Source of the DNA: a virus
IMG/VR virus record: IMGVR_UViG_3300023184_003849
Span: 57,847-121,846 of that record
Reading direction: 5' to 3' (one strand)
Length of the DNA stretch: 64,000 bases
Positions 54,149-58,227 of the stretch are shown piece after piece. Within the stretch, counting starts at the first letter, position 1; every line of letters starts with the position of its first letter. Made by a program: the position numbers and the translations under genes. Under the pieces are notes generated by a model. It was given only the letters and a program-made list of their open reading frames with translations, was not told the origin of the DNA and searched no databases.

Positions 54149-54688
54149 ATGAATCAATTTAAAATTGAAACTCATGCCAGTTGGGGACGAACTGCTCCGC
54201 AAATATGTGTAAACAATCAAATACTAACCATTCCTGTAGGTACAAGTTTAGTTGAACTACCGGCACAAGATTTAGAAACATTGACTATAGATTTTTTTAG
54301 TAAAAAAGAGTCTGACACTATTATAGATGAATCAGGGCAAATCGTGGCAGATACAGAATGGCGTATAACTACTATTTGGTGCGACCAAATACGCCTAGAG
54401 TCTTGGTTTCGAAACGATGCAATTTATCGCCCAAAATATTTTTCTGGATTTTTAAAAAATAATCCTGATGCGCCAACAGAGATTACGGCTCCGTATCAAT
54501 TTAACTTTTGCGGAACTATCAATTGGCAATGGCAAGGAGATTTCTGGGAATGGTACTTCCATGAAAAAAACAAAAGAGAAGTTATTAATTTTTTAGACAA
54601 AGATCCCGACCGTGTTTGGAAGTTTCGTGGCAATACAGAATCTTGCGATGATCTTGTGACTGGTATTCGAAACATATTAAATTTATGA
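54149..54688 (+). CDS. Hypothetical protein (179 aa)
   Basis: ORF coupled within the cassette; no family recognised. Confidence 0.7.
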   Translation: MNQFKIETHASWGRTAPQICVNNQILTIPVGTSLVELPAQDLETLTIDFFSKKESDTIIDESGQIVADTEWRITTIWCDQIRLESWFRNDAIYRPKYFSGFLKNNPDAPTEITAPYQFNFCGTINWQWQGDFWEWYFHEKNKREVINFLDKDPDRVWKFRGNTESCDDLVTGIRNILNL

Positions 54689-56256
54689 AACATTTTGCAT
54701 TTATTAATACTCCCAGTGTAGAACTAGAGCGCCCGCCTGCGGCAGCCGCGGTGATCTCTGCATGTGCAAAATCAGTAGGATGGACTTGTGATCAGTTTGA
54801 TTTTAATCTTTACTTGAATCATGCTGTTGATTCAGACACTTGGCAAGAACTAGAGCAATACTGGAGATGTAAGAGACTAGAGTTAACTGCTGCCACCAAA
54901 AAAAAATTAGATCGAGTTCTAGGCGACTTTATAGACAGTATAGTATATACCAACCCTGATATGATAGGTGTTACTGTGTTTAGCCGTATGAGTGTAATGG
55001 CAGCATGGATAGTATTGCAAGCATTACGTGACAAATACAAAGGCAAGATTGTGATAGGTGGTAGTGGAAGTTATGCATGGCCCGGTAGTTTACCTAGTAT
55101 GGATGCCAACAGTTTAGATTCGTCTACATTTGCTGATTATGCTCACAAAGTTGGATTAGTTGATTATTTTATACAAGGTGATGGAGAAGAGGCATTTGTT
55201 GAATTACTCAATGGTAACGAAATGTATCCAGGTATTAATGGCCAACCTCCTAAGCAAATTGAAAATTTAAACACACTACCTCTTCCTGATTACACTGGAA
55301 TTGAACCAGGAAAATATTTTTACACCCACGAACCAGGCATCTATGTTACTGCAAGTCGCGGATGTGTTCGTAAATGTTCATTCTGTAATATCCCCGAAAT
55401 GTGGCCAAAATTTAAAAACCGCACTGCTGATAATGTTATTCAGGAAATTATAAACGGTAAAAAAAAATTTGGGGTTAACCTGTTTCATTTTACTGACAGT
55501 CTTCTTAACGGCAATATGAAAGTATGGAGAGAAATCAATCATCAATTGAAAGAACTTAGACAGTCAGATCCAGATTTTAAAAACATCAAATATATGGGAC
55601 AGTTTATTTGTCGTACTAGACTTGATCAAACAGAAAGTGATTGGGAATTGATGGCGGCTGCTGGAGCCAATCTGTTTGTAACTGGCATTGAGAGTTTTAG
55701 TTATCGTGTTAGAAAACACATGGGCAAAAATTACAGCGATGCTGATATAGATTTTCACTTCAAGATGAGCGCCTGGCACGGTATTAAAAATATTAGCCTG
55801 ATGTTTATTGGCTATCCTACAGAAACGTTAGAGGACCATGAGTGTAATATAGAGTTTTTGCATCGGTATCGCAAATATGCCCTCAGTGGAGTTATCCATG
55901 CAGTTCGTTGGGGATATACTGGTATGTTCAGAGAAAGTGACAAACTGGAAAAATTTGGTGATGTAAAAATTATTACAGATCCAGATTTTTCCAAAAGATT
56001 TAGCAACTTGCCTCAAGGCATTAGAGACATCGCATTGGGTTTTGGTTGGATCAATAAACTCAATCCAACCTTAGATCTGCGAGAGCGCATTCGTCGACGA
56101 CTTGAATTACACGAAGTTAGTGTAAAATTAGGATGGCCACAAACACGAAGCAGAGAAGAATTACAAATACTTTATAATATTTTAGAAAATTTGAATCGTA
56201 ATCAGGTAGATGGACAAGATTTTGAAGAACTAGAAACATTGTTAGATTTTCATTAA
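54685..56256 (+). CDS. Cobalamin-binding (class B-type) radical SAM enzyme
   Basis: N-terminal Rossmannoid B12-binding-like region (PP.AA..ISA, D.N, IVIGG, GDGE), LP.PDY, SRGCVRKCSFC, DSL.NG, GIES, GYPTET. Confidence 0.88.
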   Translation: MKHFAFINTPSVELERPPAAAAVISACAKSVGWTCDQFDFNLYLNHAVDSDTWQELEQYWRCKRLELTAATKKKLDRVLGDFIDSIVYTNPDMIGVTVFSRMSVMAAWIVLQALRDKYKGKIVIGGSGSYAWPGSLPSMDANSLDSSTFADYAHKVGLVDYFIQGDGEEAFVELLNGNEMYPGINGQPPKQIENLNTLPLPDYTGIEPGKYFYTHEPGIYVTASRGCVRKCSFCNIPEMWPKFKNRTADNVIQEIINGKKKFGVNLFHFTDSLLNGNMKVWREINHQLKELRQSDPDFKNIKYMGQFICRTRLDQTESDWELMAAAGANLFVTGIESFSYRVRKHMGKNYSDADIDFHFKMSAWHGIKNISLMFIGYPTETLEDHECNIEFLHRYRKYALSGVIHAVRWGYTGMFRESDKLEKFGDVKIITDPDFSKRFSNLPQGIRDIALGFGWINKLNPTLDLRERIRRRLELHEVSVKLGWPQTRSREELQILYNILENLNRNQVDGQDFEELETLLDFH

Positions 56257-56316
56257 AATTCACAGTAAGGCAGCAAAAGAGATAACTACAACGCAAGGAT
56301 AAATCGCACACGACAC

Positions 56317-56745
56317 ATGACATGGCTATATCAAGACACTCCAGTTGAGACGTTGCCCGAAGAATGTGTTGGATTTGTTTACTTGATCACAAACAATCTC
56401 ACTGGACGCAAGTACATAGGCAAAAAATTAGCAAAATTCGCAAAAACAACATACCGGACTGTAAAACAACGAAACGGCACAAAAAAGCGGAAACGGATAC
56501 GCTCTAAAATCGATTCAGATTGGAGAGAGTACTATGGGTCAAGCCCAGAATTAACCGCAGACGTAAACACACTAGGCACCGAAAACTTCACCAGAGAAAT
56601 ACTTTACTATTGCCGATCCAAGTCTGAATGCTCATACATCGAGGCTAGAGAACAATTCGCAAGACGAGTATTGGAATCACGAGATTATTACAATGGCCAC
56701 ATCCAGGTCAGGGTGCATGGCTCACACATACTAAACAAAATTTAA
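56317..56745 (+). CDS. Stand-alone GIY-YIG endonuclease (Seg/EndoII-like)
   Basis: GFVYLITN..GRKYIGKK, YYGSS, F.REIL, E, YN motifs; basic insertion KKRKRIRSK. Confidence 0.88.
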   Translation: MTWLYQDTPVETLPEECVGFVYLITNNLTGRKYIGKKLAKFAKTTYRTVKQRNGTKKRKRIRSKIDSDWREYYGSSPELTADVNTLGTENFTREILYYCRSKSECSYIEAREQFARRVLESRDYYNGHIQVRVHGSHILNKI

Positions 56746-57172
56746 CAGGCAGCAAAAGACACAGTGGTAGGTGACATGGCCTACCCCCATTGAGGAACGG
56801 TGAGATACCCGGTCTGGACTTGGGCGTCAAAGGCAATTGCTAACTTAAGGCAACAAAGGATCGGGGCTCTGTGAAACAGATACAACCCTGGCTTATAGGA
56901 CTTGGATCTATCTCGGGTCACTAGGGTTCCGTTGATATGTGAAGCGTGAGTAGGGGGTACCGGTCAACCGCCTCCGTGTGTGCAAACACAATCTCATTAG
57001 TATAGATGACTGCTGTCACTCGGATGATGCGCTCTCATTTTTTCACCGTGCATACGGTGAATTATGACCACAGTATCTGGATGATACTACAAAACAATAT
57101 TTAGAAAACAATCCATTGATGAACGAAGTGAATCAATAGACTTGCGTAGCAAGTCTCGAAAGCAAATAATGA
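56746..57172 (+). ncRNA. Candidate highly structured non-coding element (about 430 nt; RNA and/or ssDNA structure)
   Basis: Only large ORF-free gap in the window; at least nine stem-loops found by eye, including a GNRA-capped stem and G-U-containing helices; strand inferred from wobble pairs and from the upstream gene. Confidence 0.55.
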
Positions 57173-57403
57173 TTAGAAAAAGGGTAGGCCTGACTTTTTC
57201 GTTGTCTCCAAGTTCTCTTTGATTAAATCACCAATTGCTTCTCGATCACTGGAACTCAAGGCCATGGCTTGGTCATAGGTCAATCCTCCCCGCATGTACC
57301 AACTGAATTTTATTGCCTCTTGTTTGATCTGTTGACATTCCTTGTCCATGGTCTCTATCAACTGATTGATTTCCTGGGGATTTGAGATCAGGAGGCGTCC
57401 CCG
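57173..57403 (-). CDS. gp51-like baseplate/tail assembly chaperone segment, probably made as a -1 frameshift extension of gp26 (alternative own ATG at 57349)
   Basis: W.MRGG.TY..AM.LS..DR..I..LIKEN; frame is -1 relative to gp26 and open across the slippery site. Confidence 0.65.
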   Translation of the reverse strand, partial: RGRLLISNPQEINQLIETMDKECQQIKQEAIKFSWYMRGGLTYDQAMALSSSDREAIGDLIKENLETTKKSGLPFF

Positions 57404-58227
57404 AAAAAACTTGCCATGTCCAAGGTAAAGGGCTGTGCGTACTGGTGACTGCATTCTGTGCAGGTCAACTCAACTGGTTTGATCTCACTGGCCTGTTTGA
57501 GACTGATGGCATGATCTCTCAGTTGAGCAAATGTTCTGCTGTCACAGTTGCGTAAGAATTCCAAAATGTGATCAACTTCAGTCACCAGTGCATCTGGTGT
57601 CTTGATGGCGCCAATGCTTTGAGCAATGGTTTTGAGCGTGAGTTCATTGATGATCTTCATACTCCGGTTCAACTGCTCCAGTTTAGCAGTTTCTTCGATT
57701 TGATCACTGTCAATGCTTCTCAAGGCCTGTTGCTGTTCAAACTGTGTTTGATTGTTTTGATTGACGTCTCGGTAGTTGATGGGTCGGAAATAAAATTCAA
57801 GATTGCCCAAGGCCAGGCTCTTGTCATAGTCTCCAGGACGTATTTGATCATTGATGGCTCGTAGATCTAGTGTGAGATCTTCGGTGTGATTGCAACTGGG
57901 GCAGGTGCTGGCAATGTCCATGCCATGGCCAAAACTGGCAATTCTTATGGCCACCAACACAGCGTCAATGTCAGTGCTGGGCATGGCCCAAGGGTCTCTA
58001 ATGCTGGGCACACAACTCTGGATCACACTCACAATGGCTGATCCGTTGAACAAGGCATCAGGTGTGCGATAGGTTATTTCATCTACTGCTGTCATGGGCA
58101 ATACAGGCAATTCGCCATTGGGCGGCATGTTTAAACTGCCTGTAGGGTAGAATTTGCCTCCTGAAGGCAGTCTAATGTGTATTGCAGGTTGTCTAAAGTA
58201 CTGACTGAGGGGGTTTGGTTGTTGCAT
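57388..58227 (-). CDS. gp26: Baseplate hub assembly chaperone (gp26-like)
   Basis: NPL..YFRQP...LPS.G..Y, PMTA.DE...TPDAL.NG, D.D..L.AIRIAS.G, CPSC ... CTEC, ends SFFG. Confidence 0.8.
   Translation of the reverse strand: MQQPNPLSQYFRQPAIHIRLPSGGKFYPTGSLNMPPNGELPVLPMTAVDEITYRTPDALFNGSAIVSVIQSCVPSIRDPWAMPSTDIDAVLVAIRIASFGHGMDIASTCPSCNHTEDLTLDLRAINDQIRPGDYDKSLALGNLEFYFRPINYRDVNQNNQTQFEQQQALRSIDSDQIEETAKLEQLNRSMKIINELTLKTIAQSIGAIKTPDALVTEVDHILEFLRNCDSRTFAQLRDHAISLKQASEIKPVELTCTECSHQYAQPFTLDMASFFGDAS
57403..57409 (-). promoter_or_regulatory. Putative -1 ribosomal frameshift slippery heptamer T TTT TTC
   Basis: AGT TTT TTC in the gp26 frame, five codons before the stop; the -1 frame continues 76 codons. 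Confidence 0.65.

What the first reader, a model, noticed from the sequence alone, without database searches (positions are those of the whole stretch)
56317..57172. Stand-alone GIY-YIG nuclease followed directly by a ~430-nt densely structured non-coding element
Seen: in a window where genes abut or overlap almost everywhere, this is the only long ORF-free gap, and it begins at the nuclease stop codon. Helices found by eye: GGTAGG/CCTACC (56766-85), TTGC/GCAA (56837-53), TCTGT-GAA-ACAGA (56868-80), AACCCTGG/CTAGGGTT (56884-91/56921-28) enclosing GACTTG/CGGGTC, GGGGG/CCTCC enclosing CGG-TCAA-CCG (56953-75), TGTGT-GCAA-ACACA (GNRA loop, 56977-90), TTCACCGT/ACGGTGAA (57042-61), AGTATC/GATACT (57072-88). 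Possible long-range pairs: TGAGAT 56801-06 with ATCTCA 56991-96, and TACCCCC 56782-88 with GGGGGTA 56953-59. Established: G-U wobbles and GNRA loops are RNA hallmarks, and nuclease-adjacent structured RNAs are known (HEARO/omegaRNA with IscB, group I introns with GIY-YIG). Inference: this may be an undescribed large phage ncRNA, possibly a partner, guide or scaffold for the GIY-YIG protein, which lacks a C-terminal DNA-binding domain and carries a basic KKRKRIRSK insertion.
Basis: partly seen in the sequence, partly recalled or inferred. Interest (0 to 1): 0.85.

Follow-up and report, generated by a model that had tools for sequence, protein, structure and literature searches.

The report
Twin-box folded RNA beside phage nuclease
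The gene-free gap behind a small nuclease gene of this uncultured freshwater T4-like phage encodes a real, intricately folded RNA of about 400 bases that carries one 7-letter word twice; its job is unknown and nothing shows that it guides the nuclease.

Summary
The gap 56746-57172 holds a real non-coding RNA gene on the + strand, about 56757-57155. On 25 relatives, 39 of 86 modelled pairs show compensatory changes against 18.9 in shuffles, with 0 of 500 shuffles as high. Two pseudoknots are supported.

Rfam 15 has no match to the window's RNA. Its 3' two-thirds are shared with sister RNAs whose first 140 nt are the orphan Rfam motif Polynucleobacter-1, RF01718, at 85-122 bits.

A SegE-type GIY-YIG gene lies upstream in 109 of 114 informative type-A loci and 111 of 113 type-B loci. 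Several facts weigh against a partnership:
- Other genes are inserted between nuclease and RNA in 30 loci.
- Three or four loci lack the nuclease.
- Bacterial relatives sit beside a small tyrosine recombinase instead.
- The nuclease family occurs in 459 cultured-phage records, and the RNA was absent at all three such loci inspected.

So the nuclease looks like a syntenic neighbour, not a shown partner.

The oddest feature is two identical 7-nt boxes flanking one hairpin. They change together at least 17 and 8 times.

This scan has reported the same family on other genomes, with the same reading. The function is unknown.

The parts
56268..56280 (+). First copy of an exact 13-nt direct repeat (AGGCAGCAAAAGA), in the leader of the GIY-YIG gene
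   Evidence: exact copies at 56268 and 56747. 15 of 100 shuffles give at least 4 matches at up to 2 mismatches, so this is weak. It is not a genome-wide motif.
56317..56745 (+). Stand-alone SegE-type GIY-YIG nuclease gene, 142 aa, catalytic domain only
   Evidence: Pfam PF19835 at 1.8e-33 over residues 3-129. phrog_447 at 1.9e-38. No PDB sequence match at E up to 10. Single copy in 5 near-complete relatives.
56747..56759 (+). Second copy of the 13-nt direct repeat. It forms the RNA leader and runs into helix H1.
56757..57155 (+). The whole non-coding RNA gene (type A). The ends are inferred from where conservation and helices begin and stop.
   Evidence: Single copy in G000 and in 5 near-complete phage genomes.
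56758..56828 (+). 5' domain. H1 is 56758-60 with 56826-28 and closes hairpin H2 (56766-72 with 56779-85) and H3 (56786-89 with 56821-24). H3 in turn encloses hairpin H4 (56794-800 with 56809-15).
   Evidence: on 91 unique sequences. H2 has 6 of 7 pairs compensatory. H1 56758:56828 is GC 80, CG 10. H4 56798:56811 is CG 70, AT 10, TA 10.
56837..56853 (+). Hairpin H5 (56837-41 with 56849-53)
   Evidence: 56837:56853 is TA 56, CG 18.
56863..56889 (+). H6 (56863-66 with 56886-89) enclosing hairpin H7 (56870-73 with 56881-84)
   Evidence: 56863:56889 is TA 43, GC 34, CG 8. 56870:56884 is TA 77, CG 14.
56899..56919 (+). Hairpin H8. Its loop 56907-10 pairs with 57003-06 to form pseudoknot 1.
   Evidence: 56908:57005 is CG 44, TA 36, TG 5, CA 2.
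56920..56946 (+). Invariant joining strand. Positions 56931-35 (GUUGA) pair with the H11 loop 56964-68 (UCAAC) to form pseudoknot 2.
   Evidence: 104 of 114 unique RNAs were read correctly. 103 of them are fully complementary, in four different versions (GUUGA/UCAAC 85, GUUGU/ACAAC 15, GUCAU/AUGAC 2, GUCGU/ACGAC 1). One has 4 of 5 pairs. 10 regex mis-captures were dropped.
56947..56996 (+). Three-way junction. H10 (56947-50 with 56993-96) closes H11 (56953-58 with 56970-75) and the GNRA hairpin H12 (56978-81 with 56986-89).
   Evidence: 56947:56996 is TA 48, AT 42. 56953:56975 is GC 68, AT 23. H12 has 3 compensatory pairs.
57018..57028 (+). Box 1: ACUC followed by the 7-nt word GGAUGAU (57022-28)
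57042..57061 (+). Hairpin H13 between the two boxes
   Evidence: It is 8 bp and invariant in close relatives. It is replaced by other perfect hairpins in type B (UUUGCCC/GGGCAAA), type C (GGAACCG/CGGUUCC) and bacteria (CUGAGCC/GGCUCAG).
57075..57085 (+). Box 2: AUCU followed by the same 7-nt word GGAUGAU (57079-85)
   Evidence: identical to box 1 in 91 of 91 type-A sequences and in 140 of 144 unique regions of all types.
57089..57114 (+). A-rich linker, variable in length and sequence
57115..57155 (+). 3' module. H14 is 57115-20 with 57132-37, with inner pairs 57123-24 and 57128-29 and tandem G-A. H15 is 57139-45 with 57149-55.
   Evidence: H14 has 6 of 6 pairs compensatory and H15 has 5 of 7. 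The same module is seen by eye in bacterial relatives.

Best explanation
The gap encodes a single-copy gene for a non-coding RNA of about 400 nt with several pseudoknots, on the + strand. It is the 'type A' form of a modular RNA family. Sister forms carry the Rfam motif Polynucleobacter-1 as their 5' domain. All forms share a 3' core:
- a pseudoknotted three-way junction,
- two identical 7-nt boxes on either side of one hairpin,
- an A-rich linker,
- two closing hairpins.

The RNA starts 6-15 nt after the stop codon of whichever gene ends the upstream operon, which is usually the SegE-type GIY-YIG gene. It is most likely made as the tail of that transcript.

It most likely works as a free-standing folded RNA whose two boxes are read together by one partner with two equal sites, such as a dimer or a duplicated site. 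The nuclease is a syntenic neighbour, not a guide-dependent enzyme.

Shown: the fold, the strand, the conservation, the copy number, the neighbourhood counts, the link to RF01718 and the coupling of the boxes.

Inferred: co-transcription, the 3' end at H15, and the two-site reader.
For: Structure:
- 35 of 86 RNAalifold pairs are compensatory.
- On my pair list, 39 against 18.9 compensatory pairs, with 0 of 500 shuffles as high.
- Helix-by-helix counts on 91 unique sequences support the model.
- Pseudoknot 2 occurs in four complementary versions.

Distribution:
- One copy in each of 5 near-complete phage genomes of 332-347 kb.

Family link: the type-A profile matches the 3' half of type-B and type-C loci. 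RF01718 scores 85-122 bits in 6 of 6 type-B loci and in 0 of 4 type-A or type-C loci searched.

Position: the RNA starts right after the stop of GIY-YIG, or of an inserted gene, in every locus read.

Transcription hint: contigs of RNA libraries from 3 studies cover the ORF and the RNA. Three contigs bridge the stop codon into the RNA.

Boxes:
- Identical in 91 of 91 type-A sequences.
- Mutual information is 1.04 and 1.07 bits, against 0.21 and 0.39 for the next-best column.
- The two variable positions change at least 17 and at least 8 times on the tree.
- 140 of 144 unique regions are identical.
- Bacterial relatives carry different words, again twice.

Nuclease not obligate.
Against: - No direct RNA ends are known. 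All RNA runs laid were contigs of relatives, DNA carry-over is not excluded, and the flanks are too divergent to serve as a silent control.
- No promoter or canonical terminator was found on the + strand.
- The two-site reader is unidentified, and a protein reader would have to follow many A/G switches.
- Near-universal adjacency to GIY-YIG in phages, and to a catalytic-domain-only recombinase in bacteria, could mean more than synteny.
- The single-sequence fold energy is not significant.
Confidence: 0.55

Rival explanations
1. The two boxes touch each other, within one molecule or between two copies. They would lie in parallel register through like-with-like pairs (A.A, G.G) and lock a pseudo-symmetric fold. 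The RNA would then be a self-contained machine, such as a ligand sensor or sponge, a catalyst or an oligomer, and would need no box reader.
For: - The coupling is i with j and i+4 with j+4, which is parallel register. Only identical letters are seen in 91 of 91 sequences.
- No third covarying column exists inside the RNA.
- No complementary site was found in the operon or the genome.
- The repeat unit is longer than the box: UGAC, a short spacer, then the box, twice.
- From recall, not from a call: other large phage RNAs (GOLLD, ROOL) form homo-oligomers. Only the abstract listing of 10.1101/2024.12.08.627333 was seen.
Against: - Whole-word replacements (xGAUyAU, ACAUGAA, AACAAAA) include C and U positions, which are poor like-with-like pairs.
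- Parallel homo-duplexes are rare in natural RNA (recalled).
- 4 of 144 phage regions and 5 of 12 bacterial regions tolerate mismatches.
Confidence: 0.15
2. The RNA is the specificity subunit of small DNA enzymes that lack their own DNA-binding domain: GIY-YIG in phages and a 198-aa tyrosine recombinase in bacterial islands. The twin boxes would name a 7-nt core that must be the same at two DNA sites.
For: - GIY-YIG lies upstream in 109 of 114 and 111 of 113 loci. RNA and nuclease are each single copy and adjacent in 5 near-complete genomes.
- The nuclease is the catalytic domain only.
- In 12 of 12 bacterial loci the RNA lies between DUF6641 and a recombinase whose Pfam match covers residues 16-186 of 198.
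- A rule of 'identical but free to vary' is what a shared crossover core would require. This is recalled from tyrosine recombinase spacers and the IS110 bridge RNA core (PMC11208160, abstract only).
Against: - The same nuclease family is in 459 cultured-phage records, and no RNA follows it at the three loci read.
- Genes are inserted between nuclease and RNA in 30 loci, and 3-4 loci lack the nuclease.
- The RNA type is nearly uncoupled from the nuclease tree.
- Neither the box nor its complement sits at a fixed place within 8 kb either side in 12 bacterial loci. The complement is not enriched in G000.
- Seven nt is very short for a guide.
- An earlier check in this scan put a bold reading of a sister case at 2 in 100.
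Confidence: 0.08
3. The RNA is a cis-acting 3' untranslated element of the operon. It would stabilise the mRNA, control read-through into the convergent baseplate genes, or regulate the last gene.
For: - It always starts a few nt after the last stop codon, whichever gene that is.
- RNA-library contigs bridge the ORF and the RNA.
- The 2010 catalogue rated the sister motif as probably cis-regulatory.
Against: - About 400 nt with two pseudoknots, 25-nt invariant single strands and coupled boxes is far more than 3'-end protection needs.
- In bacteria the RNA stands alone between divergent genes.
- The complement of the box is absent from the upstream mRNA in 0 of 120 loci.
Confidence: 0.08
4. The phage copy is a captured decoy of a host island's RNA. 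It would soak up or misdirect the island's recombinase or DUF6641 machinery during infection, as an anti-satellite or anti-defence move.
For: - Homologous RNAs sit in sporadic bacterial islands, in 17 of 151 genomes of one genus, always with DUF6641 and a small recombinase.
- Four near-complete phage genomes and G000 have the RNA but neither protein.
Against: - The host of these phages is unknown.
- Phage box words differ from every bacterial box word seen.
- Type A and type C lack the RF01718 domain altogether.
Confidence: 0.07
5. It is a DNA-level element, such as an origin, a recombination site or folded single-stranded DNA, or an unrecognised known ribozyme or intron, rather than a new RNA.
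For: - H13 is a perfect inverted repeat flanked by direct repeats.
- An AT-rich tract follows.
- GIY-YIG genes often sit in group I introns (recalled).
Against: - Fifteen helices with G-U pairs fit one strand only, and there are two pseudoknots.
- H14 and H15 covary as hairpins of the same transcript.
- No Rfam family, including the intron models, matches at E up to 10.
- There is no exon context. The upstream ORF ends in a stop and the next gene is on the other strand.
Confidence: 0.04

Closest known systems
Polynucleobacter-1 RNA motif (Rfam RF01718; Weinberg et al. 2010, PMC2864571)
   Same: Sister RNAs at the same phage locus, and RNAs in bacterial islands, begin with this 141-nt motif. 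They share the window RNA's 3' core and its freshwater habitat. The function is unknown in both.
   Different: The window's own 5' domain does not match the model even at E up to 10. The catalogued motif covers only the first third of the full RNA. The twin boxes, both pseudoknots and the 3' hairpins are not in Rfam. The 2010 table rates the motif as probably cis-regulatory.
HEARO / omega RNA of IscB, and the TnpB guide RNA (recalled, not tested beyond Rfam)
   Same: A large structured RNA next to a small nuclease gene in mobile DNA. It was long an orphan before a guide role was found.
   Different: There is no Rfam match and no IscB or TnpB. The RNA does not overlap the ORF. Other genes can be inserted between them. 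No long variable guide segment is present, only two 7-nt boxes.
IS110 bridge RNA (PMC11208160, abstract only seen)
   Same: One RNA shows two loops, and a short core must be the same in both.
   Different: No IS110-type recombinase is present. The boxes are identical over the whole word, not a 2-nt core flanked by differing guides. No matching DNA sites were found.
GOLLD and ROOL large phage RNAs (10.1101/2024.12.08.627333, abstract listing only; otherwise recalled)
   Same: Large, ornate, phage-borne RNAs of lakes with a conserved part, a variable part and unknown function.
   Different: No Rfam match to either. This RNA is smaller, at about 400 nt. There are no tRNA neighbours: no tRNA was found in the window.
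T4 SegE-type free-standing GIY-YIG endonucleases / phrog_447
   Same: The neighbouring protein matches the SegE GIY-YIG domain and phrog_447 end to end.
   Different: It has no C-terminal DNA-binding part (142 aa). It is not sporadic as homing genes are, being present in about 97% of informative loci. The label 'NAD synthetase' on phrog_447 looks like a misnomer.
Group I intron with a GIY-YIG homing gene (I-TevI type; recalled)
   Same: A GIY-YIG gene beside a structured RNA of about 300-400 nt in a T4-like phage.
   Different: The ORF is outside the RNA, there are no exons, and no intron model matches at E up to 10.

Membership tests
Rfam RF01718 Polynucleobacter-1 | Covariance-model score at or above the gathering score of 37 bits | tested here: not met
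   No match in the window at the gathering score or at E up to 10 over 56200-57300. It is met by 6 of 6 type-B relatives at 85-122 bits.
Extended Polynucleobacter-1 / 'twin-box' RNA family (informal; not in Rfam) | Shared 3' core, by sequence, with RNAs that carry RF01718 | tested here: met
   The type-A profile hits profile positions of about 190-425 in type-B and type-C loci at E 1e-5 to 1e-24.
Extended Polynucleobacter-1 / 'twin-box' RNA family (informal; not in Rfam) | Two identical 7-nt boxes (ACUC+N7 and AUCU+N7) on either side of one hairpin | tested here: met
   57022-28 equals 57079-85. Identical in 91 of 91 type-A sequences and 140 of 144 unique regions.
Extended Polynucleobacter-1 / 'twin-box' RNA family (informal; not in Rfam) | Pseudoknot between the joining strand and the loop of the GG..AACCGCC hairpin | tested here: met
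   Four complementary versions. The bacterial GUUUC/GAAAC version was seen by eye.
Extended Polynucleobacter-1 / 'twin-box' RNA family (informal; not in Rfam) | Statistical homology of the phage box-hairpin-box module with the bacterial RNAs | tested here: inconclusive
   Model R1 finds the window at 77 bits. It finds the true bacterial site in only 1 of 12 loci, at E 4.1. The link rests on RF01718 and on module order.
SegE-type GIY-YIG nuclease (Pfam PF19835) / phrog_447 | Profile match over the whole catalytic domain | tested here: met
   PF19835 at 1.8e-33, profile positions 1-123 of 123. phrog_447 at 1.9e-38.
Free-standing homing endonuclease (Seg type) | DNA-binding domain besides the catalytic domain | tested here: not met
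   Only 13 residues follow the domain, and there is no second Pfam hit.
Free-standing homing endonuclease (Seg type) | Sporadic presence among close relatives | tested here: not met
   Present in 109 of 114 and 111 of 113 informative loci. One copy in each of 5 near-complete genomes.
RNA-guided nuclease system (omega RNA / CRISPR type) | Obligate pairing of the RNA with its nuclease, and a variable guide that matches targets | tested here: not met
   The RNA occurs without the nuclease and the nuclease without the RNA. No matches to the box complement were found. Binding itself cannot be tested here.
Group I / group II intron | Match to the intron models and flanking exons | tested here: not met
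   No Rfam match at E up to 10. A stop codon lies upstream and a convergent gene downstream.
Reverse-transcriptase template RNA (retron / DRT type) | A reverse transcriptase encoded with the RNA | tested here: not met
   PF00078 is absent from G000 and from 5 near-complete phage genomes, while the control genomes ring.

The most novel reading that the evidence does not exclude
The RNA is the DNA-recognition subunit shared by two unrelated families of domain-poor DNA enzymes: the 142-aa GIY-YIG nuclease in giant lake phages and a 198-aa tyrosine recombinase in bacterial islands. Its twin boxes would set a freely evolvable 7-nt core that two DNA sites must share. This would be a new class of RNA-programmed DNA cutting or joining.
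Probability: 0.06. Interest if true: 0.95.

Novelty: new variant of a known kind. Interest (0 to 1): 0.6.

Why it matters
A complex RNA of about 400 nt with two pseudoknots, present once per genome in hundreds of uncultured giant freshwater phage contigs and in bacterial islands, is a rare kind of object. Most such 'ornate' RNAs that have been solved turned out to be guides, ribozymes or unexpected assemblies.

Only a third of a sister form is catalogued, and it is labelled cis-regulatory. The full-length architecture, the exchangeable 5' domains and above all the two boxes give concrete handles for experiments. The boxes stay identical through at least 25 inferred changes.

If the boxes prove to be read by the neighbouring small DNA enzymes, this would be a new RNA-programmed system. 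If they contact each other, it would be an unusual RNA-folding rule.

The case also corrects an annotation: the phage family labelled 'NAD synthetase' (phrog_447) is a GIY-YIG nuclease domain.

Tried and rejected
- Single-sequence folding: not significant.
- Rfam on the window: nothing at the gathering score. At E up to 10 the only hit is an 11-bit Ocean-VII match outside the RNA on the - strand.
- blastn of 56200-57300 against 50,697 phage records: no match.
- tRNA or tmRNA: none in the window.
- Promoter and terminator scan: at chance level, and nothing useful on the + strand.
- Cultured relatives of the nuclease (Melnitz-3, S-SSM7, ACP17): no gap and no RNA.
- Template-jump idea for the twin boxes: no reverse transcriptase found.
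- Boxes pairing with the nuclease mRNA: the own complement is present in 0 of 120 loci, against 11 of 960 for other words.
- Box complement in G000: not enriched.
- Box or complement at a fixed place in 12 bacterial loci: none.
- AGGCA leader motif as a genome-wide signal: no.
- Genome contigs pattern scan: 24 of 27 hits were chance. 3 were real, all in MAG bins and probably phage contigs.
- Model R1: it did not reach the bacterial RNAs.
- Nuclease tree against RNA type: the tree is poorly resolved, with 9 of 122 branches starred. The careful tree did not finish.
- nhmmer missed the RNA in 6 of 80 nuclease loci. Four of those have 300 nt or less downstream. L026 later proved to be type C. L076 stays unexplained.
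- Read laying: there is no cover over 56000-56305 or 57122-57376. The flanks of relatives are too divergent to map, so this says nothing. One snap-back contig was read as a library artefact.
- My pair string had H15 one base out of register, giving 44.7% paired.

Literature:
- No paper links GIY-YIG to a guide or partner RNA.
- 'Polynucleobacter-1' occurs in one held paper only, and 'DUF6641' in none.
- No RNA-guided tyrosine recombinase turned up.
- Of PMC2864571, PMC10690425, 10.64898/2026.09.22.753630 and 10.64898/2026.10.21.760802 I saw passages only.
- Supplements were closed. They may list this RNA among unnamed motifs.
Full report
WHAT IS THERE

ORF 56317-56745 (+) encodes 142 aa. It matches the SegE GIY-YIG domain from end to end (PF19835, E 1.8e-33, residues 3-129 on profile positions 1-123) and phage family phrog_447 (1.9e-38). 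It has no sequence relative in the PDB.

Upstream lies a B12-type radical SAM gene, 54685-56256. Downstream, on the other strand, lie a 93-aa gene (57173-57454) and a T4 gp26-like baseplate gene. No ORF of 60 aa or more lies in 56746-57172.

The window is part of a 121.8-kb IMG/VR virus record estimated at 35% complete. Near-complete relatives are 332-347 kb, and two of them have terminal repeats.

IS IT STRUCTURED?

Folding the sequence alone does not show it: z = -1.55 on the + strand and -0.45 on the - strand. Comparison does.

The nuclease has more than 594 relatives in IMG/VR, and the best 80 were fetched. 27 of those carry a near full-length copy of the gap sequence at 75-89% identity. 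A profile finds a homologue behind the nuclease in 74 of 80.
- On 25 sequences RNAalifold predicts 86 pairs, 35 with compensatory changes.
- My own list of 18 helices gives 94.5% paired cells (shuffled 87.2 +/- 0.3). It gives 39 pairs with changes on both sides (shuffled 18.9 +/- 2.2), with 0 of 500 shuffles as high. Sliding the partners leaves 2-12 such pairs.
- In that string H15 was one base out of register. The right register pairs in 79-98% of 91 sequences.
- Many pairs alternate G-C with G-U, which only the + strand allows.

ANATOMY (91 unique type-A sequences)

1. H1 closes a 5' domain with hairpin H2 (6 of 7 pairs compensatory). H3 lies inside it and encloses hairpin H4.
2. Next come H5, then H6 enclosing H7, then hairpin H8.
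3. The loop of H8 pairs with 57003-06, forming pseudoknot 1 (56908:57005 is CG 44, TA 36).
4. A 27-nt invariant strand follows. Its GUUGA pairs with the loop of H11, forming pseudoknot 2. This pairing occurs in four fully complementary versions across types.
5. H10 closes a three-way junction with H11 and the GNRA hairpin H12 (56947:56996 is TA 48, AT 42).
6. Then come box 1, hairpin H13, box 2, an A-rich variable linker, and the hairpins H14 and H15.

Three local helices and both long-range pairings are not supported.

THE TWIN BOXES

Box 1 is ACUC+GGAUGAU (57018-28). Box 2 is AUCU+GGAUGAU (57075-85).
- The two variable box positions are identical in 91 of 91 type-A sequences. Their mutual information is 1.04 and 1.07 bits, among the ten best column pairs of the RNA. 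The next-best partner of either column reaches 0.21 and 0.39.
- On a tree built without the box columns they change at least 17 and at least 8 times.
- Over all types, 140 of 144 unique regions have identical boxes and 4 differ at one letter. 29 spurious regex matches were dropped.
- Type C has ACAUGAA twice. Bacterial relatives have AACAAAAG, AGCGAAAG, AUCAAAAG or AGAGAAAG twice. Those are identical in 7 of 12 loci and differ at 1-2 letters in 5 of 12.
- The register is parallel: i pairs with j, and i+4 with j+4.

I found no third covarying column. The complementary site is absent from the nuclease mRNA in 0 of 120 loci. The complement is not enriched in the genome. No fixed copy lies near the bacterial RNAs. 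No reverse transcriptase is present that could use the boxes for template jumps. The feature remains unexplained.

WHAT FAMILY?

Rfam 15 has nothing for the window. When ten relatives' loci were scanned, the six type-B RNAs matched RF01718 Polynucleobacter-1 at 85-122 bits (gathering score 37). The match covers the whole 141-nt model and begins about 10 nt after the nuclease stop. The two type-A and two type-C loci did not match.

So the family is modular. It has one shared 3' core and at least three 5' domains, and only one of the three is catalogued. The 2010 catalogue lists the motif as a likely RNA, probably cis-regulatory, from Burkholderiales and fresh water or estuary (PMC2864571, Table 1). 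It is the only held paper with that name.

The motif is in 17 of 151 sampled genomes of one bacterial genus, and in 1 of 151 of the wider family sample, plus one match below the family's cut-off. There it heads a roughly 560-nt RNA with the same module order. It lies between a divergent DUF6641 gene and a 198-aa catalytic-domain-only tyrosine recombinase in 12 of 12 loci. A full-length integrase lies nearby in 11 of 12, and there is no GIY-YIG.

A model of the phage box-hairpin-box module does not reach these bacterial RNAs. Their kinship therefore rests on RF01718 and on architecture.

THE NUCLEASE: PARTNER OR NEIGHBOUR?

For a link:
- Loci found through the RNA alone carry the nuclease upstream on the same strand. 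For type A this is 109 of 114 informative loci, 88 of them abutting. For type B it is 111 of 113, 102 of them abutting.
- Both nuclease and RNA are single copy in 5 near-complete genomes.
- The protein has no DNA-binding domain.

Against a link:
- All these loci are syntenic relatives that also keep the gp26 module downstream.
- In 21 + 9 loci one or two other genes sit between nuclease and RNA. They include SGNH-like, radical SAM and unknown genes. The RNA then starts right after the stop of the inserted gene.
- L141, L144, L155 and L355 have the RNA without the nuclease.
- phrog_447 relatives are in 459 cultured-phage records, mostly T4-like cyanophages. At the three loci read they have no gap or RNA behind them.
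- Nucleases 87-91% identical to the window's go with type A, B or C RNAs alike. The RNA type changes at least 20 times on the (poorly resolved) nuclease tree, against 30.3 when shuffled.

I read the nuclease as a fixed neighbour. An exact 13-nt direct repeat brackets its leader and ORF. This may mark an old insertion in front of the RNA, but the repeat is not significant on its own.

EXPRESSION

Contigs of four RNA libraries from four studies, at 82-99% identity, were laid on the locus. Those of three (X15, X18, X19) cover the ORF and the RNA up to about 57070, and three contigs bridge the stop codon. These are contigs of relatives and DNA carry-over is not excluded, so this is only a hint of co-transcription.

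VERDICT

This is a real, complex, single-copy RNA gene. It is a new variant (type A) of a family of which only a fragment of a sister form is catalogued, and its function is unknown.

My best reading is a free-standing folded RNA made as the operon's tail, with its two boxes read together. The rivals are box-to-box contact, a specificity subunit for small DNA enzymes, a cis-acting 3' UTR, a decoy of a host island RNA, and a DNA-level element.

After my own analysis I looked up earlier notes of this scan. The same family was reported on many other genomes, with the same closest known family and the same reading of the nuclease.

Noticed in passing
window 56268-56280 and 56747-56759 (also 56848-56860): An exact 13-nt direct repeat, AGGCAGCAAAAGA, brackets the GIY-YIG leader and ORF. 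A copy with 2 mismatches lies inside the RNA. It is not a genome-wide motif. It may be a trace of the nuclease cassette inserting in front of the RNA.
   Followed up: partly
L235 9184-11196 and L374-L384 (unnamed bacterial genomes): The bacterial relatives of the RNA sit in a fixed module: DUF6641 (-), the RNA (+), then a 198-aa catalytic-domain-only tyrosine recombinase (+). This holds in 12 of 12 loci. A full-length integrase lies 2-8 kb away in 11 of 12. The module is sporadic, found in 17 of 151 genomes of the genus.
   Followed up: partly
loci L085, L093, L105, L108, L118, L135, L140, L152, L156, L176, L181, L183, L190, L195, L196: One or two accessory genes (SGNH-like, radical SAM, about 300-aa unknowns) are inserted between GIY-YIG and the RNA. 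The distance from the RNA to the p93/gp26 genes varies from 0.2 to 3.2 kb. The RNA therefore sits between two insertion hot spots.
   Followed up: partly
window 56317-56745; phrog_447: The phage family annotated 'NAD synthetase' in PHROGs and in many cyanophage records is a SegE-type GIY-YIG nuclease domain. The name looks like a propagated misannotation.
   Followed up: partly
L214, L219 (contigs of 148 and 183 kb in a Haliscomenobacter MAG); L207 (Flavobacteriales MAG): Long contigs binned into Bacteroidota MAGs carry GIY-YIG, the RNA and gp26. They are probably phage genomes binned with a bacterium. At best this is a weak host hint.
   Followed up: no
window 56817-57041 (run X15, contig record 7): One RNA-library contig joins 57041 back to 56817 through 28 letters that are partly antisense to the RNA. 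I read it as a snap-back cDNA artefact, but a rearranged or circular form was not excluded.
   Followed up: no
It may be an alternative fold.
   Followed up: partly
window 57173-58227: The 93-aa gene and the gp26-like gene overlap at 57388-57454 on the - strand. I did not examine it.
   Followed up: no
L076 (IMG/VR locus): This is the only nuclease locus with 3 kb of downstream DNA in which no RNA homologue was found by profile or motif.
   Followed up: no
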